A model generated the notes under the pieces. The model worked only from the letters and a program-made list of their open reading frames with translations, was not told where the DNA came from and made no database searches. This document shows, piece by piece, positions 1-28,962 of a stretch of DNA of 64,000 nt (positions are counted from its first letter, which is position 1; each line of letters begins with the position of its first letter). The position numbers and the translations under genes are program-made. This stretch comes from Chiloscyllium plagiosum (lineage: Eukaryota): assembly GCF_004010195.1 (NCBI RefSeq), contig NC_057718.1, forward strand, positions 96,788,138 through 96,852,137. Reading direction: 5' to 3'.

Positions 1-384
1 CTTGTGGGCAGCCACATCATGCAAGTTATACAAGAACCCTGTAACGATGTAGGAAAAGTATCTGAGCAGCAGTGCAAACCTCTAGCTTGGCATCTGGCAA
101 CACTTTGCACCTGCCACAGACGCTATTGTTTTAATGACCAGCAGCCAAATGAGCCCTGACATCAACAGAACCCAGAGCCCATTTATTACATGTCCAAAGA
201 ACCATAATGTATCCATCGGTGGTAGATTGGGAGTTAGGTAAAAACAATGACTGCAGATGCTGGAAACCAGATTCTGGATTAGAGTGGTGCTGGAAAAGCA
301 CAGCAGTTCAGGCAGCATCCGAGGAGCAGGAAAATCAACATTTCAGGCAAAAGCCCTTCATCAGGAATGATGGAGTTAACTTAC

Positions 385-476
385 TGTGGCTGGCACACAA
401 TCCAGTTGCCTCGCTCCATGATTTGATACAAGTATCCCGTCAATTCCATGCTTAGCAGCTTCTCTGGCATCATCAG
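385..476 (-). CDS. HAO1: HAO1 coding exon 5
   Basis: Acceptor tttag|CT. Encodes (A)[30 protein letters not shown], with the alpha-hydroxy acid oxidase SNHG-x-RQ catalytic His motif. Donor ACA|GTAAGT; 92 nt. Confidence 0.95.
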
Positions 477-2450
477 CTAAAGTTACAAAGACCTGGCAGT
501 TAGTAACAGTAACTAAAATAGTTTCTCGTGAAAATGAAATAACAGCATCTGTACAAACATTCAGGAGGGACTGAACAAACTGCGAGAGTGTAGGTTTCTC
601 CAAACACGTCAAGTCCTGGGAGGGAGACGTGCATCTTAACACTTGCACGATGCCTTGCTTTTATTAACATTCTGCTCTACATTCTGAAAGAGGTGCTATA
701 GGTAGCATGGTTACAACCCCAAGGTGTCAGCCAGGTTCTCTTTGTACTCTGATACTTCCATTTATCTTAATTAAGAAACCCTTCCACTGAAATGTTTTTG
801 TATCGTTTTAAGTTATTAATATGATTACAGTAATAATGTGCATTTAATTTAATTACTTCACCATGTCAAAGGAGCATGATTGATTGCTGAACTTGTAAAA
901 GAATAATAAAATTCCGCACTAAGATGGATCATTAGACTTTGTCTGCAACACGTGCTTTTTGCATCAGTATCATGCTACGTTTTCGTTCCAAATTATTTTG
1001 TCCTTTAAAATGTAACATTTTTCTTTTACAGTCAGGGCCTAAACCTTTTCATTTGTTGCAAGTGAAGAATGAAATTGAAGGGGCAGAACGCCGAGCGGAA
1101 ACTCGAGACATTGGCCACCATGCTGGTTTGCAGTTACCACTCACCTCCACCCCCAATTCCCACCTCCACTGACTCCCCCAGCTCACCCCACTTTCCCAGA
1201 GGCAGGGTGGGAACCGAAAGGGCCACCCGCTCATGGTTGGCCAATTCCAGCCAAGGTAACGGGCCATTCACAGGAATTGTCCAGTCAGCCCGCAGGCCTC
1301 CCCTACCCACCAGAGACTAGGCCGGCCGCCCGGAAGAGGCCTCCCAACCATGATCCAATGCTTCAGGCTGAGGCATTGAGCTCCTCCCCTCCCTCCCATT
1401 CTGCTTGGTCACCTTGCAACCACATGTTGCCTCCTAATCTTCATCTCTCCACAAATATCAACCTGGCTACGGAGGCCTTTGTTTTTCATATTGAAAAGAG
1501 GAGATATTTCAGGTACCCTCTCTTTCCCCCATTCTTTTGTATTTCCTTTTTTTATCTAAACTTCAGGCTTCAACTCCTTCCAAGTTGAAGATGCTGCTTC
1601 TGGCCCTGAGAACCCACCCTCCATCCTTAATGAGATGAGAACAGGAGTAGGCCATTCAGTCTATTGAGCCTGCTCCACCATTCAATACGAATAATTCAAT
1701 TGAACACTTCAATGATTTTGACTCGTCCCATCACCATAAGCCTGTACATCACTGGTGGTGTCTACTTTAAACATACTCAATGACTGCTCTTCGAAAACCC
1801 TCTGTGCTGGAGAATGCCAAAGGGTCACAACCTTCTGAAATTCTCCTCATCTCAGATCTAAGTGGCAATCCCCTCAATTTTTTAAAAAACATGCCCTTGA
1901 CTCTAGACTCCCTCACCAGGGGAAACATCTTAGCTACATCTACGTCCTGGCTATCAGGTGATGTACTGCGTAGGGTTTGATGAGATCACCTCTCAATTTT
2001 TGAAACTCGAAAGAGTACAAGCCCAGTTGCCCAATCTCTCGTCATAAGACTGTCCCACATCCCAGAAACAAGTCTGATGAACCTGGCTTTTGAGCACTAA
2101 TTGGGCAATCTAGGAAAAAAAAATCACATGACTGTTTCCTATCAGTCCCCCTTCTATTTGACTCTGAACTCTCTTCCCCCACACCCCCAGATACCCAAAC
2201 TCTTACCCATAGTCTTTTATCCAAATACAATGACTGAATTGTGACCAAACAATAAGACAACTAGCAATACTAGACTGGGCTGTAAGGGGTGGATGATTTC
2301 ATGACTGTATACACTTCTCACATTCAGACAAACTTACCAAGCTGAGCAAAACATCACAAAAGGTATTCCAGCTCACCAAGGCAGGAGGCAAAACAAAATT
2401 AGGGCATGTTTCAAGCCAGAAGTGAAGAGTGCTGTTAGATCGCTACTCAC

Positions 2451-2623
2451 CTCTCAAGATTCCTTTGAGAACGATGGGCAGTTTAGTCAGCTCCCGCAGC
2501 CAGTCAATGTCCTCCCATTTTATAGAGGAGTCGATAGCATCAGCTGTGTACACAGCCAACCCACTGTCATCTCCATAGTCCTTTTTGGAAAATGCCAGAT
2601 CGAGTGTCTCAAAGTTTGCCATC
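2451..2623 (-). CDS. HAO1: HAO1 coding exon 4
   Basis: Acceptor ttttcag|G. Encodes [57 protein letters not shown], including the FMN-binding KG lysine. Donor G|GTGAGT; 173 nt. Confidence 0.95.
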
Positions 2624-2786
2624 CTGAAAACAAAACAGCTCATGTCAGGAAGCTTTTGGCTTCAGCCATTGATGGAGTACTTGAGAGGCAGGCAGATTGG
2701 AATTCAGTCATTTGACCCTTTACCTCTCCCTCAGCATTTTGTACTTGTGGATGTTCTATCTTGTTAACCTCAATTTCTAGCCATTT

Positions 2787-3128
2787 CATAGAATCCCTGC
2801 AGCCCGGAAGCAGGCTGTTTGGCCAATCAAGTTCACACTGACCCTCCAAACAGCATCCCTTCCAGACCCATCCCCCTACCCCATAATACTGCATTTCCCA
2901 TGGCTCATCCACCTAACCTGGACATCCCTGCGCAATCTAGCATGGTCAATTCACCTAACCTGCACATCTCTGGACTGTGGGAGGAAACTGGAGCACCTAG
3001 AGGGCACCCACACAGACATGGGGCAAATGTGCAAACACCACACAGACAGTCACCCGAGGGTAGAATCGAACCCAAGTCCCTGGTGCTGTGAAGCAACAGT
3101 GCTAACCACTGAGCCACTGTGCCACTCC
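2787..3128 (-). mobile_element. HE1/V-SINE-type tRNA-derived SINE
   Basis: A-box/B-box head gtggctcagtggttagcactg...ggttcgatt, central gtgtggggtttgcacat-type domain, CR1-like tail. Confidence 0.85.
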
Positions 3129-3199
3129 ATGCTACTACTTATGAATGCTCTATCTTGTTAATCTCAAATTCCAGCTATTTCCCCCTACTTCTTAACATT

Positions 3200-3410
3200 A
3201 AAAAATCACACAAAACCAGGTTATAGTCCAACAGGTTTATTTGGCAGCACTAGCTTTCGGAGCGCTGCTCCTTCATCAGGTGGTTGTCGATAGTGGCACT
3301 GATGAAGGAGTGACACTCTGAAAGCTAGGGCTTCCAAATAAACCTGTTGGACTATAAGATGGTGTTGTGTGATTCTTAACTTTGTCCAACAGCGGCACCT
3401 CCAAATCATG
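3200..3410. mobile_element. Penelope-derived short palindromic element (family B)
   Basis: Inverted arms ttatagtccaacaggtttatttgg / ccaaataaacctgttggactataa, each carrying a hammerhead core. Similar copies at about 27270-27450, 33365-33730, 50525-50700, 54445-54710 and 63290-63585. Confidence 0.8.
3248..3282 (-). ncRNA. Minimal type I hammerhead ribozyme motif (Penelope-derived, family B)
   Basis: Minus strand reads CAC-CTGATGA-A-GGAGC-AGC-GCTCC-GAA-AGCT-A-GTG. Intact CUGAUGA/GAAA core, 5-bp stem II, palindromic AGCU stem III, CUA cleavage triplet and CAC/GUG stem I. Confidence 0.75.
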
Positions 3411-3867
3411 ATTACTTCTTAATAGCCTTCCTTCCCCGAATACATTTTGCCCTTTTAAACGCCATCATTATGAAATTGCAAACCTTAATGACAAGAAACC
3501 TGTAATATTCTGTCAGAGATGATGGTGCAGTGCTAATGTTACTGAGGCCTAGGATAATGCTTTGGTGGGCCATTGGTTCAAAGCCCACTACAGCAGTTGG
3601 TGTTACTGCAATCCAATTCAGAAATCTGGAATATATAAGGATAGTGTCAGTAATGGCGACTATATACCTGGTTAGACTCCACTTGGAATACTGTGAGCAG
3701 ATCTAAGCTCCACACCTTCGGAAGGATATACTGGGCTTGGAAAAAGTACAATATAGGTTTACAAGAATTGTACCTGAACTTTATCAGTTATGAAGTTGGA
3801 TTATATAAATTAGGCCTGCTTTCTCCCAAATTTAGAACATTATGTGGTTATCGGATCGAAGTTTAGG

Positions 3868-4232
3868 TTAGATTAGATTCCTTACAGTGTGGAAACAGGC
3901 CCTTCGGCTCAACAAGTCCACACCGACCCTCCGAAGAGTAACCCACTTCCCTCTGACCAATGCACCTAACGCTCTGGGTAATTTAGCATGGACAATCCAC
4001 CTGACCTGCGCATCTTTGGACGGTGGGAGGAAACCGGAGCACCTGGAGGAAACCCACGTCGGCACGGGGAGAATGTGCAAACTCCACACAGACATGAGTG
4101 TCACATGTGCAAACTCCACACAAACACGGGAAGAATGTGCAAACTCCACACAGACAGTTGCCTGAGGTGGGAATCAAACCTGGGACCCTGGTGCTGTGAG
4201 GCAGCAGTGCTAACCACTGAGGCACCATGCCA
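3868..4232 (-). mobile_element. HE1-type SINE inserted in a CR1 remnant (3660-4590)
   Basis: Full head/core/tail with an internal triplication of tgtgcaaactccacaca and a (TCTAA)n tail. Confidence 0.85.
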
Positions 4233-4702
4233 CAGTCATCAGATTGAAGTCTTCAAGATATTAACAAGGAACAACAAGAGATAAAGATAAACCAGTTCCA
4301 TTGGATGGGGATTCTAGAACAAGGCAGTATTGTCTAAAAATTAGGGTCAAACTGTTCAGGAGGGATGTCGGAAGCACTTCTACACACAAAGGGTGGGAGA
4401 GGTTTGGAGCTCTCTTCCACATTTGGCAGTGGGTGCTGCATCAATTGTTAATTTTAGATGAGAGATAGATAATTTATTTTGTTCAGCAAAGGTATTAAGA
4501 CAGGTAGATGAAGTTAGACCATGGATCAGCCGTGATCTCATTGAGTGGCAGAACAGACTTGAGGGGCTGAATGGCCACTCCTGTTCCTACATTCGTAAAA
4601 TTATGATCATCTGTTGTTCAAAACCCAGAATATTCTTTAGGGAAGACAGTCTGTCATCGTGATCTGGTCTGGCTTGACATGAGATGCAGACACACCCAGT
4701 GT

Positions 4703-4980
4703 GGGCAGTTTAGTGGCTCAGTGGTTAGCACTGCTGCCTCACAGCACCAGGGACCCGGGTTGATTCCCGCCTCGGGCGACTGTGTCTGTGTGGAGTTTGC
4801 ACATTCTCCCCGTGTCTGTGTGGGTTTCCTCCAGGTGCTCCGGTTTCCTCCAAAGATGTGCAGGTCAGATGAATTGGCTGTGCTAGATTGTCCCATAGTG
4901 TTCAGGGATGTATAGGTTAGGTGTATTAGTCAGGGGTAAAATGTAGAGCAATGGGTCTGGGTGGGTTACTCTTCGGAGTA
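4703..4980 (+). mobile_element. HE1-type SINE
   Basis: gtggctcagtggttagcactgctgcctcacagcaccagggacccggg...gtgtggagtttgcacattctcccc. Confidence 0.85.
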
Positions 4981-5740
4981 GGCACAGTGTGTACTGTCCC
5001 TGCCTCTGGGCCAGAAGAATGGAATTCAATCATGACTTGACCAAACAGATCAAGTTCGATTTGCAAATGCTTTGGACACACACTGTGCAAGATCTCTTTC
5101 GTATAACTAAGTTATGTTATTATAGAATAACTCTACATTTCTAAGCATTGGCCAATCCTTCTCATGCTTTTTGTGAAATTTGACGTGGCCAATAATTTAA
5201 AATGGAGTATTGACATCACTAAACATTGAGACAACATTTGGAATTCTATGGCAAGGGGTGGGTGTGTCAGCCTGGGATGGAAAGCAGTCAGAGCCTGTCC
5301 CATCACTGTGACTAGGGTAGTTTTTGTCTGTGCAGGTTCGATGGGCCTTTTCTGTACTGCACGTTTCTACATGTGAATCCATAACTCAAGGCTACAACTG
5401 GCACGTGCATGTGCACTTTGAAAAATGGTCACAGGACTTGAAAACATTAACTTTGTTCCTCTCTCCGCAGATGCTGCCAGGAATTCACCAGCAATTTCTG
5501 TTTCTGCCACTGGAGGGAGTTGGTTGGCTCAGTTGGCTGGAACACTGGTATGGGTTTGAATGGTGCTGCTAATAACGTTGGGCGTTCAATAATCCCCTCG
5601 AACTGGGTGGATCTAAGCTCCGCTTCCTGCAGTGGAAATGAAGAGATGGGTTTGCCTTTTTACTGAGGAAGAATCGGTGACTGATGGGAGATTAATGGTG
5701 CACCACCATTTCCTTTCTGACTTCAAATGCATCATATTAC

Positions 5741-5996
5741 CTCAAGTGAGGGGGCAGTTTGAACTTGTTCCGCATATCCGCCAAACGCTTCCCCAGGTAG
5801 GGAGTGTCAACGGTTAGGAAGACTCCGCAGTAGCCAGCCTTCTCCGCTCTCCTCACCAGGGATTTAGTCAGCTCCCGATCCTTGTAGATGTACAACTGCA
5901 GCCAACGTGTCGCACTGGGCACTGCCTCAGCCACTTCCTCAATGCTGGAAGTCGCCCAGGTACTGAGCATCATGCCTGTGCCTAGCCTTCCACAGG
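5741..5996 (-). CDS. HAO1: HAO1 coding exon 3
   Basis: Acceptor acag|CC. Encodes (A)[84 protein letters not shown](R). Donor AG|GTAAT; 256 nt. Confidence 0.96.
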
Positions 5997-6767
5997 CTGT
6001 TCAGCCGGGTGCACATGTCAAAGAAAAATGTCATTTGTTAGCCTCAGATTGAAAACATATTTCTCATATTAATATTCAATCTACAAACGGGAATTCTAAT
6101 TGAAAATAACAGCCCCCAAGCACACCATCACTCCCTAGTCAGGCTCTCTTTGGAACATGTGGAGTTTTGCAATAGTCTATTTTCAAAAGAATATTTGCTC
6201 ATTTTGTAACGGATTGATCTGGGATGATCAGGATTAACATGTACCTAAATACGTTCTCATAAAGCATTCCTTCCACATAGTTCCCACATGGTCAGGCTAT
6301 TACTTAAATTCAGCCATGGAATGTGTCCACAATGGAACATCACACAGGCTAACTCAGTTCAAGACGATTGTCATTTTTCTAACATACTCTAACAACTTTT
6401 ACACAGACCTATGTTGGAATGGTTTCAAGCAGATGAATCAGATTGGGTGATATGAACTTTAATTGGCAACTCAACTGGCCATTTCCAAGGCACAGAGAGA
6501 CGGAGGAGGGGGTGAACACAGATAGATCGAGCAATGTCATACCGAGTACCTGCAGTGTACTGTGGGCCAACAGCAGCAGCCAATGTTATATTCAACCACA
6601 ATCTAAATCTAATTCTGAATCTTTGTCCCAGGGAAGGTAAGGAGGTGTAATAAATGTTGGTGCTGCTCACATCCCTTGAGAAAATCATTAAAAATTCAAT
6701 CCTTTAAAATTTCATAGCATTAAAAAAAACTTACACTTATATAATGCATTTGATTATTTCCTATAAC

Positions 6768-7010
6768 ATTAGATTACATTACAGTGTGGAAACAGGCCCT
6801 TCGGCCCAACAAGTCCACACAGACCCGCCGAAGCGCAACCCACCCATACCCCTGCATTTACCCCTTACCTAATACTATGGGCAATTTAGCATGGGCAATT
6901 CACCTGACCTGCACATCTTTGGATTGTGGGAGGAAACCGGAGCACCTGGAGGAAACCCACGCAGACACAGGGAGAACGTGCAAACTCCACACAGTCAGTC
7001 GCCTAAGGCT
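6768..7010 (-). mobile_element. HE1-type SINE, head truncated
   Basis: Tail acagtgtggaaacaggcccttcggcccaacaagtccac plus core. Confidence 0.85.
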
Positions 7011-9314
7011 AACACAAAATACTGTGATAAAAGAATGTATAGTATACACGGGGGTCAGTTAGCTTGGATGAATGTTTTGCAATACAGAGTGACACCAACA
7101 ATGTGGGTTCAGTTCCTGCACTGGCTGAGTTTACTATAGGGACCCTCCTTCTGAACTTCTCTCCTCTCTTGAGGTGTCGTGGCCCCCAGATTCAACCAAC
7201 ACCAATCATTTCTCTGTCTCTAATGAGAAAGCAGCCTATAGTATGGCAAGTTTACGGCAACTTTACCTTTACCCTTTATAATATACATTTACATTTTTGG
7301 AGTTTGGATTTCAAAACATTAGCAAGTGGTGTTAGCTATTTCTATGACAGGTTTACTTTTTTTGAAATGTACACGGTCAGAGAGTCCTCCTGGAACAGTG
7401 ATTAAATCCAACATTTTGTCACACAGCAGGTAATCCTTATGGTATTAATGGAAAGATGTTTAAACTGTTGCGCTTACTACAGGTAGGCTAAAAATGTAAG
7501 GTCAATAGTTTTGTTTTCAGTTCGGAAGAATCTCGGTTTAAGTTTTCTTTTTAAATTCAGTTCAGAAGACACCAGTGTTGAGTATCAAAGTAAGTTTAGT
7601 TGCTCTTCTGGGAGGATTGATTCAGGCGAGTTCAGGGGATTATTTACCTCAGCAGAAGAGTTTAGTTTGCGATAACATCCAAAACCAGAATAGTTTGGTT
7701 GGAAAAGGAAAGCTTATTGGAAATAAAAATGTTGATGCACTCAGGTTTGTGGAAACATTCAGGTCATTGGAAAGGTCTCATCAAATTGTCTTCACAGTCA
7801 AAAACTAAGGAACAGTCAAGAATCAGTGACGTAGAAACCTAAACGTTGAGATAGGAGTGTAATTTTGCTGGGTTTAAGTTTCCATTAAGGACACTGTCAG
7901 GATATAGATTGAACATCTTTTTTACTGTGTGTTTTAGATCCTGCTAACTGTCCCATTCATTTGATTTGTTTTTTTTTAATTCCCTCTTTGGCGTAATAAA
8001 CTTCTGCTTGAGCAGTGGAGTTTAAAACTAGAGGGCATATTTTTAAGGGTGAGTGGAGAAAGATTCAAAAGGGATCTGAGAAGCAACTGTTTCATACAAA
8101 GGGTGGTTCGTATGTGGAATGAGCTGCCAGAGGAAGTGGTAGATGCAGGTATAGTTACAACACTTAAAAGACATTTGGACAGGCACATGTTTATTTATCC
8201 ATTTGTGTGACGTGGACTTTGCTGACTGGCCAACATTTATTGCCCATCCTTACTCACCTTTGAGAAGGTGACAGTGAGCAGTTTAGAGGGATATGGGCCA
8301 AACGCAGGCAAACGCAGGGACTAGGTTAGTTTGGAAAAGGTGCTCAGCATGGATGAGTTGGACCGAAAGGCCTGTTTCTATGCTGTATGACTCCATGACT
8401 CTATAATATCTGCGTCTTTGTGTGCATTTGTTCCAGTGACAAAGTACCACCCCAAAAAACCAAACAAAAACTAAATATGATCCATCAAGCCAGGTTGCAA
8501 TCTGGGATCTGATTTGTTCAACAATACCATTAACTCGGATCAGAATGTGACTGAAAGCTTTTACTATTGTATGAGAAACAGCTAATTTGAATGTGCAGGA
8601 AATTCACATAAATAGCAACGAGGCCATAACAACATTGTTTTTTGTGAGTTGTTGTTATTAAAAGAATAAATATTGACCAGGACATCATTCTTACTCTTCT
8701 CCAGTCCATTGCAGCACCATCCAAGAATCTCTATACAGATACCAGAATTCTACCAGACTCAGCCAGCTGAAGTAGCAATTCTTTATAAGAAGCTTTATGC
8801 ATTGTTAAAGTGTTGTGGGTGCAACCAACTGCTTGGAATTTTTTTCTCTCTCTCTCTCTTTCCCTGGTTTCTGTCTCCACCCATCTGCCCACTTCTTTCC
8901 ACGATCCTTCTGTCATCAGTATAAATACCACCTTTAACTAAATACCTTCAGTCCTGAAGCAAGGTCACTGAACTCAAAACATTGACTCTGTTTTCTCTCC
9001 ACAGGTGCTAGCAGACCTGCTGAGTTTCTTTAGTGATTTCTGTTTTATTTTTGTTTGTCTTGGAAATTTGTGTCTACTTAAATTGCAACTGTCTGATTTT
9101 CTGAGCCATTAGGTGCGATTGACAAGAAAATAATAATTATACACTGAAGGAAAAGCATCTGAGGTGGAGGACAGAGTATTATAATATCTTTGACCTGTCT
9201 TTGCATTTCTCGATCCCACATCCATTCTCATAGATGGCAACTACATCTTTTAAAAAATTTATTCACATGATGTTGGCATCGTGGGCTAGGCCAGCTAGTG
9301 GTTCCCTTAAGGAG

Positions 9315-9850
9315 TCATAGAGTCATCCACAGAAACAGACCCTTCAGTCCAATATAATCCCAAACAAAACTAGTCCCACCTGCCCGCTCCTGACCTATAT
9401 CCCTCAAAACCTTTCCTATTCATGTACTTATCTGAACGCCTTTTAAACGTTTTAATTGTGCCCGCGTCCAGCACTTCCTCAGGGAATTATTTCCACACGC
9501 AAACCCCCCTCTGTATAAAACATGTGCCTCTCACGTCTTTTTCAAATCTCTCTCCTCTCACCTTAAAAATGTGCCCCCTAGTCTTGAAATCCCCCATCCT
9601 GGGGAAAAGAGCTTCCATTAACCCTATGTATACCCCTCACTATTTTATAAACCTCTATAAGGTCACCTCTCAATCTCTTATGCTACAGTGAAAAAATTGA
9701 AAGCTTATCCAGCCTTTCTTTATAACTCAAACCTTCCATACCCGGCAACATCCTGGTAAATCTCTTCTGAACTCTCTCCAGCTTAATAATATCTTTCCTG
9801 TAACTGGGCAACCAGAACTGGACACGGTATTCCAGAAGAGGCCTCACCAA
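9315..9850 (-). mobile_element. CR1 LINE 3' fragment
   Basis: Same CR1 3' motifs (ctggacacggtattccaga = LEYRVQ on the minus strand) and tail. Confidence 0.8.
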
Positions 9851-9854
9851 GGTC

Positions 9855-10710
9855 CCTCCTTGAGAAGGTGGTGGTGTGTTGCTTTCCTGAATTGCTACAG
9901 TCTATTTGGTGGAGATACACCCAATGGGTAGGAGGTTCCGGCACGACACTGAAGGAATGGTGATCTTTTCCAAGTCAGAATAGCGTGTGGCTTGGAGAGA
10001 AGATTGCAGGTGGTGGCACTCCCATGCATCTGCTTTATCTTGTCCTATCAGGTTTTAGGAGTTGCCGTTTTGGAAAGTGTTATCAAATGAGAGTAACTAA
10101 GTTGCTGCAAGACATGTTATAGATGGTATACACTGCTGCCACTGTGCATTGCTGGAAGTTTGAGTGAACATTTAAGATGGTAGTTGGAAAGCCAATCAAA
10201 TGGGCTGCTTTGTGCTGGATGATATTGATCTTCATAAGTGTTGTTGGAGATGTTTTCATCCAGGCAATTGGAGAGCATTTCATCAAGTTCCTGACCTGTG
10301 CCTTGAAGATGGTAAACAGACTTTGGGTAAAGCATGAAACATGATTGACACCACATTCACAAGCATCCAATCCCTCCACCATTGACGCTCAGTAGCAACA
10401 GTTTACAAGAAGGCACTGCAGAAATTCACCAAAGATCCTTCAACAGCACTCTCCAAACCCATGACCACTTCCATCTGGAAGGACAAGGGCAGCAGATACA
10501 TACAAACACCACCACCACCTGCAAGTTCCCCTCCAAACTACCTACCATCCTGTGGATCAAAATCCTGGAATTCCCTCCTTAACAGCACACTGGGTCTATT
10601 TACAACAGGCGGGGTGCAGTGGTTCAAGAAGGCAGCTCAGTACCACCTTCTTAAGGGCAACTAGAGATGGGCATTAAATGCTGGCCCAGCCAGCGACACA
10701 CAAAGCCCAC
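9855..10710. mobile_element. Two inverted L2/CR1-group LINE 3' fragments
   Basis: KAQVRNLMKCSPIAWM...IQHKAAHLIG on minus strand. Tail gggcaactagagatgggcattaaatgctggcc on +. Related copies at about 48985-49385, 57100-57330 and 61040-61330. Confidence 0.6.
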
Positions 10711-10865
10711 AAATAAATATTTTTAAAAATTGTAGTAAAAGTTTGAAAATACAAAATCTTGCTTTGCAATCATTGCATTCATCATGTGGGGGAATTTGTA
10801 TCTACTTTGAAAGGTATCTGCCCCTATGTAGATCATATGACCTAACAGTTGTTTTATATCAAGTC

Positions 10866-11175
10866 TAGATTAGATTCGCTACAGTATGGAAACAGGCCCT
10901 TCAGCCCAACAAGTCCACATTGACCCTCCAAAGTGTAACCCACCCAGACCCATTCCCCTACCCCCTACTAATGCACCTAACACCATGGGCAATTTAGCAT
11001 GGCCAATTCACCGAACCTGCACATCTTTGGATTGTGGGAGGAAACTGGAGAACACCCACACAGACACAGGGAGAAGGTGCAAGCTCCACACAGGTAAACA
11101 CCCAAGGCGGGAATCAAACCCAGGTCCCTGGCACTGTGAGGCAGCAGTGCTCACCACTGAGCCACGGTGCCTCCC
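10866..11175 (-). mobile_element. HE1-type SINE
   Basis: Same head/core/tail consensus. Confidence 0.85.
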
Positions 11176-11938
11176 CATGCTGCATAAGTCAGATTCTCAG
11201 AGGATTTGACAGAGTAAGGTTGCTTCCTCATGACATAGGGTCTTGGGCCAGAGAGTAGATTCTCAGTGGAAGAGGTCACCCATTTAAGACAGCGATGCGA
11301 GAAAAGTTTTCTCTCAGTGGGTCGTGAATTTATGGACTTCTTTACTCCTGAGCGCTGTGGAGGCTGTGAACAGTTGAGTGTATTCAGGGCTGAGATAGAC
11401 AATAAGGGAATCAAGGGTCATAGGGAAAAGGCAAGGAACTAATCTAATCTAATCTAATCTAATCTAATCTAATCTAAACTGGATTGGAGGGTCAGCCATT
11501 GAATGACAGAGTGGACACCATGGGCTGAATGGCTTCCTTCTGCTCCTATCACTTATACTTTTGGAAGAAAGTCAACACAATAATAACTTTCAAAATAGGA
11601 ATTGGATGAACAGCAGAAAGGGAAGTAGGTTACAGAGCCTACAGGAAAGAGCAAGTAAGTGAAATTGACTCACAGAGGCAGCAGAGGGATGGTGGAGCCA
11701 ATAGCCTCCTTCTGCATTTTAGGATTCAATGATTGGGCAGATGCCATCATTCATGGTGTGAGAGAGCCACCTCCTGGTTCAATACAAGTCTCACAGTCAG
11801 GATCACTTTTACATTTACAATTAGATGTTACAGTTAGCAAGGCTGTGATTAAAATACCTTTTTAAAGGACAGTCCATATTGAAGTGTGAACTTAACATTA
11901 GAGTTAAGTTTAACTGTCCTTCATTAACATATTAATTT

Positions 11939-12432
11939 GTGTCTTATCCGTGTGTGCATTTGTATCTGTGTGTGAGTTATCTGTGTGTGTTATCATTGTG
12001 TGTGTGTGCATCTGTGTTTGTATGTGCACGGGTGTTTCTGTGATTGTGTGTCTGTGTAAGTGTGTGCACATGCATGTGTGTGTGTGTGCGTGCATGTGCC
12101 TGTGTGTGTATGTGACTGTGTGCGTGTGTCTGCATGTGTGTGTGTGCATGCATGTACATGCATGCATGTCTGTGTGTGTCTGTGTGTCTGTGTCTGCGTG
12201 TATGTGTGTCTATGTGAGTGTGTGTGTATGTATGTGTGTCTGTGTGAGTGTGTCTGTATGAGTGTCTGTGAGTGTGTGTGCCTGCGTGAGTGTGAGTCTG
12301 TGTGTGTGTCTGTCTGATGATGTGTGTGTGTTCGTGTCTGTGTGTCCATGTCTGTCTGTTCATGTCTGTCTGTATGTGTATGTGTGTGTCTGTATGGGTG
12401 CATGTGTGTGTGTGTGGATGCATGTGTGTGTG
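11939..12432. repeat. Degenerate (TG)n microsatellite
   Basis: About 490 bp of interrupted TG dinucleotides. Confidence 0.95.
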
Positions 12433-13577
12433 AAGTGGGCCAGCGGAGTTAACATCTGGCTCGGACGACAGTCTGTGTGGAGTTTGCACATTCTCCCCGT
12501 GTCTGTGTGGGTTTCCCCCGGGTGCTCCAGTTTCCAAAGATGTACAGGTCAGGTGAATTGGCCATGGTAAATTGCCCATAGTGTTAGGTGCATTAGTCAG
12601 AGGGAAATGGGTCTGAGTGGGTTACTCTTTGGAGTGTCAGTGTGGACTTGTTGGGCCGAAGGGCCTGTTTCCATATTGTACAGAATCTAGTCAAACCTTA
12701 TGGTTACAAAGCTGAAATAACAATTCTTTTATTTTTAATTAGCCAAATGAAAGCAAGCATCGCATGCAACGATAATATTCCTAGTTTCTTCGAAAATGAA
12801 CTGAGACTCATATGCAGACTATGGAGGAGGATTTTAATCCTTTTTTAATTCCTACAGAGGGTGTGGGTCCAAGCCAGCATTTATTGCCCATCCTAATTGC
12901 CCTTGAGAAGGTGGTGGTAATCTGTATGTCTGTTGTATTTGATACAGCAAAAAGCTTTCTCTGAGAGTACTCAAGCACGTACGTAATCTACTCAACTGAC
13001 ACATTTTGTAACAAAAGGAAATTCTTTTCTGAGGTGTGTTATTAGTATACATTCCTGGTTTCACAGAGGATTAGTGATCTTTCCACACTAAGACACAGTT
13101 AGGAAATTTTTCTGTTGAACCATTACTGCAAAGTCCTGCATAATGTTGTATTTAATGAGTAAAGAGACATAATTAATGGCCCAATTTATGGTTACATTTC
13201 AGGCGGTGCTCAATGATTGAAAATATTTTTTTTTTAAGAGCCAGCCTTGGGTTATGCAATGTCATTCAACTGCAGACATGACATTGAGGCAGTTACGTTT
13301 GTACTGAATAATGGTACAATACGGTACCAGCCAGCTCGTTCTCCTGTGGGATCCGAAAATTGGAACATAAAGAGACAGGAGAAGGGGGAGGTCATTTAGC
13401 TCAGTAAGTCTGCTTCACTGCTCAACAGTTTGAACCCAAGCCAACCTTGTGACCACGGACACTCACTCACACTTATAACTGCTGCTTGAGTCCTTGCTAT
13501 GGCAATGAGCAGACTTTCAGCCCCAGAGAAACCAAACTGCTAAAAGAGGCTGCAGGTCCCACATCATTAAGTTCGGT

Positions 13578-13890
13578 CCCCTACAGTATGGAAACAGGCC
13601 ATTTGGCCCAACAAGTCCACACAACCCTCTGAAGTGTAACCTACCCAGACCCACTCCTCTACGTTTACCCCTGACTAATGCACCTAACACTATGGGCAAT
13701 TTAGCATGGCTAATCCACCCAACCTGCTCATCTTCAGATTGTGGGAGGAAACCAGAGCACCTGGAGGAAGCCCACGCAGACATGGGGAGAATGTGCAAAC
13801 TCCACACAGTCGCCTCAGGCAGGAATTGAACCCAGTTCACTGGCGCTGTGAGGCAGCAGTGCTAACCACTGAGCCACTGTGCCACCCCAG
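13578..13890 (-). mobile_element. HE1-type SINE
   Basis: Same consensus. An oppositely oriented partial copy lies at 12463-12690. Confidence 0.85.
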
Positions 13891-14052
13891 AACTGGCATG
13901 GGTTGGTGGGTTTAATTGTGATTTCCCTTGAAATAATTGCACAGATGCCAGTATCCCATCACAATTCACCCTTCATTTACATGTACGACACTGATCCAGC
14001 TCCCTCAGAGCCAGCTCTCAGAGTGAACAGAACCTCAGACATTCCTGTTTGT

Positions 14053-14370
14053 TTTTTTTTATTTATTTTTTTCTTTCTTTTTTTTTCTTTTTTTTGTGCA
14101 GGTGTGAGACACAGTGAAAGACACAAAGTGCACGAATCTTTATTCAAATTCCACCACCAGGAAGATAGGAAAACACCTGGGTGGCCAGTGACAAACACTG
14201 TCCTTCACATCAAAGGGCAGTGCTGTGTGATCAAAACAGTGAAGGGGAGGGTAGGGACTAAATCAAAATAGAATTGGAGGGAGAAATGATGCACTCCACT
14301 CCCTGCGGCGCCCACCTCTCCCTGAACAACTCCAAGGTGTTGGTCGACACCGCGTGCTCCTTCTCCAAGG
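14053..14370 (-). mobile_element. Tx1/L1-clade LINE 3' end, 5'-truncated, with poly(A) and 16-bp TSD
   Basis: Minus strand SLEKEHAVSTNTLELFRERWAPQGVECIISPSNSILI*, with an FxxRW C-terminus as in Tx1 ORF2. AATAAA and an A-rich tail follow. TSD agacattcctgtttgt at 14037-14052 and 14371-14386. Confidence 0.75.
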
Positions 14371-15481
14371 AGACATTCCTGTTTGTATCTGTCAGCCAGG
14401 GCTCCCTGATTGGACCAGGTTAACAGCCCCAATCAGGAAACTCAGATTCTATGATGTCCAAAAACAGAGGGTTCTGAAAAAGCTCAGCAGGTCTCGCAGT
14501 ACCTGTGAAGAGAACTCCAAGTTAACATTTCAGATCTAGTGACCCTTCCTCAGAAATGAAGGAAAATGTCAGTTTATATACAAAATATAGGGTTGGGGCA
14601 TGGTGGGAGATTGTGGGCAGGAAGAAAACAATAGGTGGGGATAGAAGCCAAAGAGAGAGAAGAACAGTTGGACAGACAAAGGAGTGGTTAACGATCTGGC
14701 TAGGAGGGTGACTAGCTATTAATGGAGACTGATAGTGGCCAACAATTGGAAGTGTGTAATCTCATTTACTCCATTTTCACCTTACCCGTAACTCTTCATT
14801 ATATTTTCTGGCTTAACATTAGTTTCAGCTTTCTTTTATGGGTTCGGGCCTAAAAATTGTCTCCCTTTTAAGAGCCTCACCAAGTCCCATTTAATCAGCA
14901 AATGGATGGGCTTTCCTTCTCTCAGAGGGTTATGAATCTTTCGAATCCTCTACACAAGAGCACTGCGGAGGCAGGGTCATTGAACACAGAAAAGGTTGAG
15001 ATGGAATTTTTGAACTATGGGCAAGTCAAGGGTTACGGAGAGCTGGCACTTAAATGGAGTCAAGGGGAAGACTGGAATGGTGGAGCAGAATCAAAGTAGC
15101 ATATGGACTACTCCAATCCTATTTCTTATACACTTATTTTATTAAATGGGTATTACAGAAACTCACCCTCTGCAGGACAATCTATGACGAGTTTTGAGGG
15201 TGGGCCTGGTAACCTGAGCATGACTTTTTTTTTGAAAACGAGTACAAACAATGGTGCAGAAACTTCATGTGTGCTGGGAGTCATTAGTGCTGGAAATTCC
15301 ATGAGATCTTTGGCTGTTACGGGTGAACCGCGCTGGAAACAATTTCCCGCCAATCAAGGTAGGCCCTGAGATTCAGCAAATTTCCCATTGGATCGTTGAC
15401 AATGTATGAAGGAAATGATTATGTAATGAGCATTGCAATGCAAGTCACTTTGAAAAGAACTCAGCTGACAACAAAAATTAC

Positions 15482-15633
15482 CTTTCACAGTCGCCACTTC
15501 ACCTTCTGGATGTGCCATCCTTTGCATGGCAGTGGCAGATACACAAATGGGCATGTTGATTCTCTGACCCAAGACAGTCACCGACAAATCCACTTTTGAC
15601 ACGTCCCTGAGCACCCTGGGACATAGACTCCAT
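15482..15633 (-). CDS. HAO1: HAO1 coding exon 2
   Basis: Acceptor ttcttag|A. Encodes (R)[50 protein letters not shown]. Donor G|GTAATT; 152 nt, phases fit exons 1 and 3. Confidence 0.95.
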
Positions 15634-16019
15634 CTAAGAAGACAGATAGGAGAATTAGAATCCATGTGCAGTTCTGGTCCATGGCATAACGATTTGCTAC
15701 ACCAGAGGATAATTGGCATCAGCCGTTGGCCTCCCATTTTGGGAGGTCGCCAATGGTTTTCCTCAGGGAACTGGAATCGAGCAGTTGCCAAGATCAGTTA
15801 ACATGAGTTCAAATCCCATCATACCTGGAGAGTGAGTAATAAATAAACTGTAAAATAAAATGCAGATGACCCAGAGTGTTGCAGAACATGGTTGGCTCCT
15901 TTAAGGAAGGAAATCTACCAGCCTGACCTGTTCTGGCCTACATGTGACTCTGCACTCACAACAACGTGGTTAACTCTTGATTACCCTAGGAAATGGCCAA
16001 ATATGCCATTCAGTTAGGG

Positions 16020-26194: not shown

Positions 26195-26612
26195 TCTCAG
26201 GTTGACAGTGGAGTACATCATTGCTTATTGACATGCCAACGCAAAAGAGAAGCAAGCATACGTTCACCTACAGTTGCAAAAAACTTATGTAGACACATTC
26301 TGAGTAGGTAGTCCATTCAAGAGCCCCAAGCACTGGCCTCTGTTAGGTTTAAGACACCGTTGATTGCAAAGGCAAGAGGAAATTGATTTTACAGGTCTGT
26401 GATCAACATCCTGGGGTTACCATTGACCAGAAACCAGACTGGACTAACCACCACCTGTGGCTACAAGAACAAGACAGAGGGACCACGACCGTTGACATGA
26501 CATTTTAATGCCGTGGAGCAAGGAAGCCAATGTGCTGTAGCCAATTTTGCATACAAAATAGGTGGAAAGGCAAGTTGTGAGAGAGACACAAACAGTTTAG
26601 ACAGAGATTGGT

Positions 26613-27088
26613 CCGCCGGCGCCCTGGGGTTGTTCCGGGGGGGGGGCGCCGCGGGGGGTGGGGTGCGTTATTTCTCCCTCCGGCTCTGTTTTGATTTGGT
26701 CCCTGCCCTCCCCTTCACTGTTTTGGTCGCACGCGCTGCCCTTTGATGTGGGGGGCGGTGTTTGTCGCTGGCCACCCGGGTGTTTTCCTATCTTCCTGGC
26801 GGTGGAATTTGAATAAAGATTCGTGCACTTTGTGTCTTTCACTGTGTCTCACACCTGCACGCACACACCATGGGTGCTGGGGAAAAAATAAGCACTACCG
26901 CACTTAGGTGGTAGTGTGGGGGTTAAAAAAAAATATATAAAACAAAAAAAAAAGGATGGTAAGGGCACTGCTTGTCACTGGCCACAAAAAAAAGAAGGGC
27001 TTATGCCCGAAACGTCGATTCTCCTGTTCCCTGGATGCTGCCTGACCTGCTGCGCTTTTCCAGCAACACATTTTCAGCACAAAAAAAA
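26613..27088 (+). mobile_element. Composite Tx1-type retrocopy with A-to-G hypermutated 5' part and 15-bp TSD
   Basis: Homologous to 14053-14370. Followed by further A-tailed segments, including a family A Penelope fragment. TSD tagacagagattggt at 26598-26612 and 27089-27103. Confidence 0.8.
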
Positions 27089-28962
27089 TAGACAGAGATT
27101 GGTTAAGTAAGGGGGATAAGGTTGGCAAAGGACGTATAATGTGAGAAAATATGAAGTTGTTCATTTTGGAAGGGAGAATAAAGGGACATAAATGTAGCAC
27201 CCAGAAAATGTTGATTAAAATAGAGTGACCAAAGAAAATCTTCCCATCTTCTCATAAATCAGAATTCACACAACATTTTGCCCGGTTATAATCCAACAGG
27301 TTTATTCAAAAACACACGTTTTCAGAGGAACACTGATGAACGAGCAACACTCCAATAGCATCTGATTTCAAATAAACCTGTTGAACTATGACCTAGTGTT
27401 GTGTGACTTCTGACCTTGCCCACCCCAGTCCAACACCAGCCCCTCCACATCACATCTTCTCATATTCACATGAAAGTCACCCATGGTGCTCGGTTTAGTT
27501 TTGAATCTGCAATAGTAATAGATGGAGATATAATTTGAAAAGTGTCCTGTGTAGGAGAGACTACACATTAATGTAAGCCCACATCCACCAGCCAGAATAC
27601 CAACTTGACTCAAAGTGAAACAGATTTCAATTTTGAACAAAATAAATCTTCTCCAAATCTATTGAGATGGGCATCACTCCGTTGTGTCTACAACAGATAA
27701 AACAAGATATAAGAAAGTAAAAGGTATTGGGAGGTATTCAATTCCAGTTCTCTTCAGACAATTAAAGGATTTTCTTCACTAAATGTATTCCAAGGTTCTA
27801 GACGGGAAATAAGTTGAACAGGCATTTAATCTTTTTATTGACTCATCAGATTCAATGGCGTTTCTTGTGAAGAAAAATGGAAACAATGCCCTGCCAGTAG
27901 CAGTGGTGGACTCTCCCTCATTATGGGCATTTAAGCGGGCATTGGATAGCCATATGGAGGATAGTGGACTAGTGTAGGTTAGGTGGGCTTGGATCGGCGC
28001 AACATCGAGGGCCGAAGGGCCTGTACTGCGCTGTATTCTTCTATGTTCTATGATAAAGAATGCACTTTCCTTGACAGCTTACCTCATCTCTCACAAAGCT
28101 TAACGCATGGAAGCTCAAACAAAAATTGCGGTAAAAGCTCAGCAAGTCGGGCTGTGGAGAGAAGTCAGAGTTAACATTTCGGGTCAAGTTACCCTTCCTC
28201 AGACACATAAAGGACTTTTTTTCATTAATTCACACGCTAGGTCAGCATTTATTGCCCATCCCTAATTGCCCAGAGGGGAGGTTAAAAGTCAACCACATTG
28301 TGGTGGGTCTGGAGTCACATGTAGGCCAGACTGGGTAAGGATGGTAGTTTCCTTCTCTCAAGGACATTAGTGTTCCAGATGGGTTTGTAAAACAATTGAC
28401 AACAGCTTCATAATGATCATTGAACTCTTCATTCCAGACTTGTATTGATAACTAATTCTATCACCTGCTATGGCAGAATAAAACTTATTCAAGTACTGCT
28501 TTTGCAGCCACTGAGAGAACCGTGGTTAAAGAATTCACCTCAAAGACAAAGGTTTCTGGAGAGCAGAAATTGCCATCACAATGCTGGGATGGCATGGTGG
28601 CTCAGTGGTTAGCACTGCTGTCTCACAGCGCCAGGTTTGATTCCAGCCTCGGGCAACTGTCTGTGTGGAGTTTGTACATTCTCCCCGTGTCTGTGTGGGT
28701 TCCCTCCAGGTGCTCCGGTTTCTTCCCACAGTCCAAAGATGTGCAGGTTAGGTGAATAGGCTATGCTAAACTGGCCAGCATCCTTTCCAAGAAACCAACT
28801 GCTATACAGTCAGTTTAAAGTCTGGTGGGAGTGTTAGCAGAGGGGCAGGTAACTGGTAGAGTGGGTAGGTGGGGAAGTGAGTGCAGTCTTGCAGAGTGAA
28901 TGGGATATCAGTTCTGGAGTTATTCAAGAGTTGGACTAGGTGCTTTTAGTCTAGAATTCATC

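What the first reader, a model, noticed from the sequence alone, without database searches (positions are those of the whole stretch)
26613..26780. Retrocopy with A-to-G hypermutation: candidate ADAR-edited RNA fixed in the genome just upstream of HAO1
Seen: a hand alignment of 26613-26860 (+) with the sister Tx1-type copy at 14053-14370 (-) shows about 25 A>G differences in about 170 nt. Only about 6 As are retained there and other changes are few. Examples: accaacacc>gccggcgcc, cagggagtggagtgcat>cggggggtggggtgcgt, atttag>atttgg (stop lost), gtgaaggacagtg>gtggggggcggtg. In the next 80 nt no A>G change is seen. Many changes are outside CpG context, so CpG decay does not explain them. The A version keeps the FRERW motif and the stop codon, and a third fragment at 26971-26985 (cttgtcactggccac) also has A, so A is probably ancestral. 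Established: ADAR hyper-edits dsRNA and reverse transcriptase reads inosine as G; APOBEC editing instead leaves G>A. Inference: a hyper-edited LINE transcript was retrotransposed in the germline.
Basis: partly seen in the sequence, partly recalled or inferred. Interest (0 to 1): 0.85.

Follow-up and report, generated by a model that had tools for sequence, protein, structure and literature searches.

The report
RNA-edited LINE copy written into DNA
One short copy of a very common jumping gene carries a dense one-sided burst of A-to-G changes, best explained by the cell's RNA-editing enzyme ADAR altering the RNA before it was copied back into the genome; it is a neat molecular fossil of a process known from retroviruses.

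Summary
The insert at 26613-27088 lies between an exact 15-nt target-site duplication. Its first part is a 5'-truncated LINE 3' end. Against 86 other copies of the family, 24 of its 27 substitutions are A>G (family pool: 68 of 837). Twenty-three of them fall in 26615-26767, where 23 of 30 family-A sites read G. In the next 141 nt, 1 of 31 do. T>C is 0 of 45 and 1 of 42.

A 28-mer of the normal version occurs 5,275 times in the genome at up to 2 mismatches. The G version occurs once, plus one weakly changed copy.

The best reading (about 0.75) is an ADAR-hyperedited LINE RNA that was reverse transcribed and integrated. Four points remain weak:
- No dsRNA partner was found.
- There is no 5'-G depletion.
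- The edited fraction is unusually high.
- The read check gave no verdict on an assembly artefact.

The principle is known from hyperedited retroviral proviruses. I found no LINE case in print. I rate it a new member of a known kind, of moderate interest.

The parts
26598..26612 (+). Left copy of the 15-nt target-site duplication (TAGACAGAGATTGGT).
   Evidence: Identical to 27089-27103. It lies in an older dispersed repeat (40 matches scored of 665 candidates, one of them the window's own locus; the others 78-86% identical).
26613..26780 (+). Hyperedited zone of a 5'-truncated LINE 3' end, covering the last ~29 codons of ORF2, the former stop codon and the proximal 3' UTR. It holds 23 A>G at 26615-26767.
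   Evidence: GC rises from 52% in the 14-kb copy to 69%, and CpG count from 2 to 15.
26781..26921 (+). Unedited remainder of the same LINE tail.
   Evidence: 1 A>G among 31 family-A sites and 1 T>C among 42. It is 97-98.6% identical to the nearest family copies.
26922..26954 (+). A-rich tail of the LINE piece and a short junction.
   Evidence: Read directly. Family tails end in similar A-rich runs.
26955..26995 (+). Short unedited piece of the same LINE family, homologous to 26753-26777 but with A where the zone has G, followed by an A run.
   Evidence: Similar short internal LINE pieces followed by A runs occur in stacks at other loci.
26996..27088 (+). About 85-nt internal piece of a very abundant SINE-like repeat, followed by A8.
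   Evidence: Depth of millions, and loose ends on both sides at about 26992-26994 and 27070-27078 in all four runs. Sequence read.
27089..27103 (+). Right copy of the target-site duplication.
14096..14370 (-). Its A-rich tail is at 14053-14095, and its own 16-nt target-site duplication is at 14371-14386 and 14037-14052.
   Evidence: It is 97-98% identical to many genome copies. It carries 2 G>A, 1 C>T and 1 C>G against the family majority.

Best explanation
A sense-strand RNA of an abundant, young LINE family was deaminated at most adenosines over at least 153 nt, covering the ORF2 end and the proximal 3' UTR. The most likely enzyme is an ADAR acting on a double-stranded region formed with an antisense or inverted copy of the same family. 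The LINE reverse transcriptase then read each inosine as G during target-primed reverse transcription. The cDNA was 5'-truncated and integrated, together with two other short RNA-derived pieces, between one 15-nt target-site duplication.

Shown:
- The direction of the changes (A ancestral).
- The strand asymmetry.
- The clustering with a sharp 3' edge.
- The retrotransposition hallmarks.
- The uniqueness of the copy.
- The presence of ADAR-family genes.

Inferred:
- That the deaminase was ADAR.
- That a dsRNA partner existed.
- That the event was germline.
- That the three pieces entered in one event by template switching.
For: Substitution spectrum:
- 24 of 27 substitutions are A>G, against 68 of 837 in 86 family copies (binomial p = 1.6e-23).
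- 23 of 30 family-A sites are changed in the zone, against 1 of 31 in the next 141 nt.
- T>C is 0 of 45 and 1 of 42.
- There are no G>A changes.

Ancestral state: the nearest relatives by the unedited part have A at the 23 sites, apart from one G, three T and a few gaps among 15 copies.

Uniqueness: the G-version 25-mer and 28-mer at up to 2 mismatches occur 1 and 2 times in 3.56 Gb. The normal 28-mer occurs 5,275 times. No G-rich subfamily therefore exists.

Retrotransposition hallmarks: an exact 15-nt target-site duplication, A-rich tails and 5' truncation.

Neighbour context: the six adenines kept as A in the zone all have 5' C or G and 3' T or C, the contexts ADAR likes least. The 3'-purine test gives one-sided p = 0.026.

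Feasibility: A_deamin exons are found at six loci of this genome.

Against: - No 5'-G depletion: 7 of 9 GA sites are edited.
- The changed fraction is high. It is 23 of 30 overall, and 11 of 12 in the first 55 nt with the twelfth changed to C. This is above the roughly 50-60% plateau I recall for ADAR on perfect duplexes (recalled, not from a call).
- No long intramolecular duplex is predicted. The unedited family RNA gives only local hairpins (z = -2.85). In a 1.1-kb fold the 166-nt zone makes 20 pairs upstream and 16 downstream.
- An antisense family copy would also be expected to pair with the unedited tail, so the sharp 3' edge is unexplained unless the partner lacked the tail or the reverse transcriptase switched templates there.
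- Human L1 RNA was reported unedited by ADAR1 over more than 2.5 kb (PMC5224506, passages read).
Confidence: 0.75

Rival explanations
1. Reverse-transcriptase hypermutation without editing. During first-strand synthesis the LINE reverse transcriptase repeatedly placed C opposite template A, for example under a skewed dNTP pool.
For: It would also give sense-strand A>G only in the retrocopy. It needs no dsRNA partner, and none was found. The very high changed fraction and the absence of 5'-G depletion are not typical of ADAR.
Against: The sharp switch from 23 of 30 to 1 of 31 within one cDNA is hard to get from a pool effect. U:G mispairing, which gives T>C, is the easier error, yet T>C is 0 of 45. 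The kept adenines sit in ADAR-disfavoured contexts.
Confidence: 0.08
2. Assembly or base-calling artefact: the true locus carries the ordinary A version.
For: No independent confirmation was obtained. At the sites listed in 26653-26667, the one contig of the best-holding run X1 reads A at three of four sites. Run X15 has zero depth in 26629-26659. The stretch contains a 10-G run and is very GC-rich.
Against: An artefact would have to change 23 of 30 adenines and none of 45 thymines, stay in register, stop abruptly, and affect only one of more than 5,000 near-identical copies. Holes also occur in single-copy flanks of the same runs, and the tool states that a hole proves nothing. GC-rich dropout in short-read contigs is an ordinary explanation (my knowledge).
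Confidence: 0.07
3. Mutation of the DNA after insertion, by GC-biased gene conversion, transcription-associated asymmetry, or polymerase-eta-type A:T mutagenesis.
For: The change raises GC from 52% to 69%. The locus lies near or in a transcribed gene on the other strand.
Against: GC-biased conversion would give T>C as often as A>G (0 of 45 against 23 of 30), and it needs a G-rich donor that does not exist. Only 6 of 23 changed adenines have a 5' A or T, the polymerase-eta WA context. The rest of the copy is only 1-3% diverged, so there was no time for 15% divergence. ADAR acting on the cDNA strand of an RNA:DNA hybrid would give T>C on this strand, which is not seen (inference from strand logic).
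Confidence: 0.04
4. Two-template chimera, a variant of the best explanation. The reverse transcriptase copied an unedited LINE tail and then jumped, in the region near 26770-26780, onto a second, hyperedited LINE RNA. In that case the edit boundary is a template-switch point, not the end of a duplex.
For: The insert already contains three different RNA-derived pieces inside one target-site duplication. Stacks of short LINE pieces are common for this family. Many stacked units begin near this very point.
Against: No junction scar is visible. The alignment to family copies is colinear across the boundary. The variant is not needed if the duplex simply ended there.
Confidence: 0.15

Closest known systems
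ADAR-linked A-to-G hyperediting in retroviruses (RAV-1, avian leukosis virus; HTLV-2 and STLV-3 in culture), as summarised in PMC8586724 (passages read).
   Same: Edited RNA is copied by a reverse transcriptase, so that inosine becomes G in DNA. The A>G changes are clustered and strand-specific.
   Different: Here the template is a non-LTR (LINE) RNA copied by target-primed reverse transcription, and the product sits in a chromosome assembly. It is a 5'-truncated dead copy, not a provirus.
APOBEC3-edited retroelements fixed in vertebrate genomes (Knisbacher and Levanon, PMC4866542, passage read; Zaranek et al., PMC2873906, passages read).
   Same: A deaminase footprint frozen in a genomic retroelement copy. 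It is detected by clustered, one-directional, strand-biased mismatches against the family.
   Different: Those are G>A changes made on the cDNA. Here the changes are A>G made on the RNA. In the passage read, that screen filtered for G-to-A and against A-to-G mismatches.
Transcriptome-level ADAR hyperediting of repeat-derived dsRNA, such as inverted Alu, B1/B2 and L1 (reviews PMC9148063 and PMC8586724, passages read).
   Same: Dense A-to-I conversion in repeat RNA.
   Different: Those edits stay in RNA. Here they appear to have been written back into DNA.
ADAR1 restriction of human L1 (PMC5224506, passages read).
   Same: ADAR meets LINE ribonucleoprotein.
   Different: That study found no editing in more than 2.5 kb of L1 RNA and an editing-independent effect. 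The present copy implies that heavy editing of a LINE RNA can happen and still permits integration.
Chimeric retrocopies made by LINE template switching, and the Tx1 landing-site stacks noted earlier in this genome (e1-8020005, e1-8019521).
   Same: Several RNA-derived pieces with A runs lie inside one target-site duplication. A landing motif recurs after the tails.
   Different: None of those notes mentions an editing footprint.

Membership tests
ADAR hyperediting footprint | Clustered A>G with A ancestral. | tested here: met
   23 of 30 family-A sites in 26615-26767. The family has A in 59-76 of 76 copies at each site.
ADAR hyperediting footprint | Strand asymmetry: no matching T>C excess. 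| tested here: met
   T>C is 0 of 45 in the zone.
ADAR hyperediting footprint | Depletion of G at the 5' neighbour of edited sites. | tested here: not met
   7 of 9 GA sites are edited. 5' neighbours of edited sites: C 10, G 7, A 3, T 3. Power is low at near-saturation.
ADAR hyperediting footprint | 3' neighbour preference (G favoured, U disfavoured). | tested here: inconclusive
   All 6 kept adenines have a 3' T or C. 12 of 23 edited sites have a 3' purine. One-sided p = 0.026.
ADAR hyperediting footprint | A double-stranded RNA substrate covering the edited zone. | tested here: inconclusive
   Only local hairpins are predicted.
ADAR hyperediting footprint | The host encodes ADAR. | tested here: met
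   PF02137 exons over the cut-off at six loci. ADAR was not told apart from ADAT1 or ADAD.
ADAR hyperediting footprint | Inosine or A-to-G mismatches seen in RNA of this family. | not tested
   No RNA runs were laid.
Target-primed non-LTR retrocopy | Target-site duplication, A-rich 3' tail, variable 5' truncation. | tested here: met
   Exact 15-nt duplication. A-rich tails. Family copies start at many different points.
Tx1-clade LINE | Reverse transcriptase and endonuclease domains grouping with Tx1. | not testable with these tools
   The longer copies read N (withheld) in L082, L087 and L089. Only the last 246 aa are visible. They give zf-RVT at 24.6 bits, below the 27.5 cut-off.
Tx1-clade LINE | Sequence-specific landing site with stacked insertions. 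| tested here: met
   ACAGGAG or ACAGGAA follows 40 of 87 tails within 230 nt, against 7 of 88 control segments. Head-to-tail stacks occur in many loci. The two window copies sit at related but not identical sites.
APOBEC-edited retroelement | Clustered G>A with G ancestral. | tested here: not met
   0 G>A in the G copy. The 14-kb copy has only 2 G>A.

The most novel reading that the evidence does not exclude
In this cartilaginous-fish-like genome, LINE RNAs can be edited to near saturation in the germline and still complete retrotransposition. RNA editing would then occasionally write a ready-made GC-rich, CpG-dense block into DNA in a single step. Here that block is 153 nt, with GC rising from 52% to 69% and CpG from 2 to 15. 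If a genome-wide screen showed this to be recurrent across LINE and SINE families, it would be an RNA-editing counterpart of APOBEC-driven retroelement diversification. It would also give a direct readout of past germline ADAR activity.
Probability: 0.15. Interest if true: 0.7.

Novelty: new member of a known kind. Interest (0 to 1): 0.5.

Why it matters
This is a rare fossil in which an RNA modification appears to have become heritable DNA sequence.

If real, it shows three things:
- A LINE RNA met heavy A-to-I editing.
- The LINE reverse transcriptase read through an inosine-rich template.
- A hyperedited RNA escaped retention or cleavage long enough to integrate.

It also gives a simple recipe for measuring how often this happens: per-copy substitution spectra in young, high-copy families. 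In six full-text searches I found no description of an ADAR-edited LINE copy in a genome. Subscription journals are mostly outside that library, so this is weak evidence of absence.

Tried and rejected
Read-level check. Four runs were laid at 90% likeness. Paralogous copies dominate, with depths up to millions. At the sites listed in 26653-26667, the one contig of X1 reads A at three of four sites, and X15 has zero depth in 26629-26659. The raw-read run X19 was sampled at about 0.5x. This gives no verdict on artefact, polymorphism or presence in the related species (X9).

G-rich subfamily or gene-conversion donor: rejected.

'Long-tail subfamily' reading of 26861-26985. I first took 26955-26985 as part of a longer tail. 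One search shows that such pieces are stacked or template-switched units following a recurring landing motif, so I dropped that reading.

Intramolecular duplex: not found.

LINE classification by reverse transcriptase: stopped, because the longer copies are withheld as N. I did not try another route. The homologue search gave one unnamed 622-aa relative and one weak hit.

Pre-insertion state from paralogues of the host repeat. 

Earlier-findings look-ups by place (near), by words and by sequence returned nothing.

The review by Knisbacher and Levanon 2015 (doi 10.1111/nyas.12713) is not held. I know only its abstract, from recall, and it may bear on novelty.

Full report
**What is at the coordinates**

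The window comes from a 3.56-Gb, 101,977-contig genome. Earlier notes of this scan call it a cartilaginous fish; I did not test that.

The stretch 26613-27088 is bracketed by an exact 15-nt direct repeat at 26598-26612 and 27089-27103. This is a target-site duplication inside an older dispersed repeat. The insert has three parts:
- 26613-26921 plus an A-rich run: the 3' end of a LINE.
- 26955-26985 plus A8: a short second piece of the same LINE.
- 26996-27080 plus A8: an internal piece of an extremely abundant SINE-like repeat. In other copies that repeat continues on both sides, as the loose ends show.

Only the outer duplication is present. The three pieces therefore most likely entered in one target-primed reverse transcription with template switches (inference).

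**The comparator and the family**

The copy at 14096-14370 (-) is an ordinary 5'-truncated member with its own 16-nt duplication. The family is young and very abundant:
- Dozens of copies are 97-98% identical to it.
- A 28-mer of the normal version occurs 5,275 times at up to 2 mismatches.
- Copies start at many different 5' points and extend upstream into an open frame, as expected for a LINE.
- The visible last 246 residues end in ...ELSRERWAPQGVECIISPSNSILI* and give a sub-threshold zf-RVT match.
- Longer copies are withheld, so the clade was not tested on the reverse transcriptase.

**Checking the observation**

I polarised the differences against 50 family copies, then against 86 copies drawn from 80 loci after dropping 6 overlapping loci and the window's own locus.
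- The G copy has 27 substitutions, of which 24 are A>G. The 86 family copies together have 68 A>G among 837 substitutions.
- Twenty-three A>G lie in 26615-26767, which is 23 of 30 family-A sites. In 26781-26921 only 1 of 31 family-A sites is G (26861, where 6 of 76 family copies also have G).
- T>C is 0 of 45 in the zone and 1 of 42 downstream.
- The statistics are extreme: zone against downstream p = 1.1e-9, and spectrum against family p = 1.6e-23.
- The copies closest to the G copy in its unedited part (97-98.6% identical over 141 nt) have A at the 23 sites, apart from one G, three T and a few gaps among 15 copies.

A is therefore ancestral.

- 26755 and 26778 are G in the family. The 14-kb copy changed G>A there.
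- 26705 G travels with a minor family haplotype, and 26628 G occurs in 7 of 76 copies. This leaves 21-23 edits.

The remaining differences in the zone are one A>C, one C>T at a polymorphic site, and deletions of 2 nt and 1 nt. The stop codon is lost (TAG to TGG).

**Is it a subfamily?**

No. A DNA search with the G version finds nothing better than 87% identity, which is ordinary family members (40 of 657 candidates scored). Whole-genome pattern searches with two G-version stretches at up to 2 mismatches find only the window itself, or the window plus one copy on another contig. That other copy has only 5 A>G among 14 substitutions, scattered.

**Mechanism**

The changes are confined to adenines of the sense strand. 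They end abruptly, and they sit in a copy that otherwise differs from its relatives by 1-3%.
- A strand-blind DNA process such as GC-biased conversion would give T>C as well, and would need a donor that does not exist.
- Polymerase-eta-type mutagenesis prefers WA, but only 6 of 23 sites have a 5' A or T.
- APOBEC would give G>A (none seen).
- ADAR acting on the cDNA strand of an RNA:DNA hybrid would give T>C on this strand.

What remains is modification of the RNA template before reverse transcription, or misincorporation opposite A by the reverse transcriptase.

In favour of ADAR:
- The six adenines that stayed A all have a 5' C or G and a 3' T or C, its least liked contexts (one-sided p = 0.026 for the 3' side).
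- The genome carries A_deamin exons at six loci.
- ADAR-linked A-to-G hyperediting of retroviruses is on record (PMC8586724, passages).

Against ADAR:
- GA sites are not spared (7 of 9 edited).
- The edited fraction is higher than I recall for ADAR on perfect duplexes.
- I found no duplex. Folding gives only local hairpins.
- An antisense family copy should also cover the unedited tail.

The edge near 26770-26780 coincides with a point where many stacked units of this family begin. A template switch from an unedited to an edited RNA is therefore a live variant.

**Artefact?**

The read check did not decide this. Paralogues swamp the repeat. At the sites listed in 26653-26667, the one contig of the best-holding run reads A at three of four sites. 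Another run has no depth in 26629-26659. The raw-read run was sampled at about half-fold coverage.

I still rate an artefact as unlikely. It would have to convert three quarters of the adenines and no thymine, in register, in one of more than five thousand near-identical copies. The locus nevertheless needs direct confirmation.

**Context**

FMN_dh exons of a hydroxyacid-oxidase-like gene lie on the minus strand at 15480-15635, 5704-6000, 2446-2571 and 367-483. The edited copy is about 11 kb to the 5' side of the first detected exon and on the opposite strand. The ordinary copy is in an intron. The genome holds other FMN_dh loci on contigs C12, C15 and C91482, and I did not determine which one is HAO1.

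**Known or new**

The principle is known: inosine is read as G by a reverse transcriptase and fixed in DNA. Deaminase footprints in genomic retroelements are well studied for APOBEC (PMC4866542, PMC2873906; passages). A study of human L1 found no ADAR1 editing of L1 RNA (PMC5224506, passages). Six full-text searches found no ADAR-edited LINE copy described in a genome. One possibly relevant review is not held.

I file this as a new member of a known kind. It is a single, clean example, of moderate interest, whose value would rise if a genome-wide screen showed recurrence.

Noticed in passing
L002, L009, L012, L041, L044, L048, L060 and others (e.g. L060:1-2671); window 26922-27088: Tails of this LINE family pile up head to tail in stacks with spacings of roughly 215 to 450 nt, mixed with short internal LINE pieces that end in A runs. 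A landing motif (T/A)AAACAGGAG(A/T)T recurs after the tails: 40 of 87 tails against 7 of 88 control segments. This matches the Tx1 landing-site arrays noted earlier in this genome.
   Followed up: partly
L039 (G000:C32:39151698-39151870): A second family copy has 5 A>G among 14 substitutions. Four of them are at sites that are also changed in the window copy (26621, 26657, 26751, 26752). It may be a lightly edited copy, or chance.
   Followed up: partly
L018:926-1591 (-), L087:1382-2450 (-): A long open frame runs antisense through the ORF2 end and 3' UTR of the LINE. It is 221 aa in several copies and longer in L087. It may simply reflect GC-rich sequence, but an antisense transcript here would supply the dsRNA partner.
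   Followed up: no
window 26613-26780: The A>G burst created a CpG-dense, 69% GC block. It has 15 CpG, against 2 in the homologous part of the ordinary copy. Almost all of these CpGs are still intact, which fits a recent insertion.
   Followed up: partly
window 26643 and 26731-26732: Within the edited zone the copy also lost 2 nt (producing a 10-G run) and 1 nt, and has one A>C. These could be reverse-transcriptase slips on an inosine-rich template, or homopolymer length errors of the assembly.
   Followed up: no
window 367-15635 (-): Four exons of an FMN-dependent dehydrogenase (hydroxyacid-oxidase-like) gene. The match at 5704-6000 contains one TAA and the match at 367-483 another, probably intron edges.
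   Followed up: no
window 26996-27080 and 14460-14540 (-): Pieces of an extremely abundant SINE-like repeat, with read depth in the millions (for 26996-27080). The resemblance of the 14-kb piece was seen by eye only.
   Followed up: no
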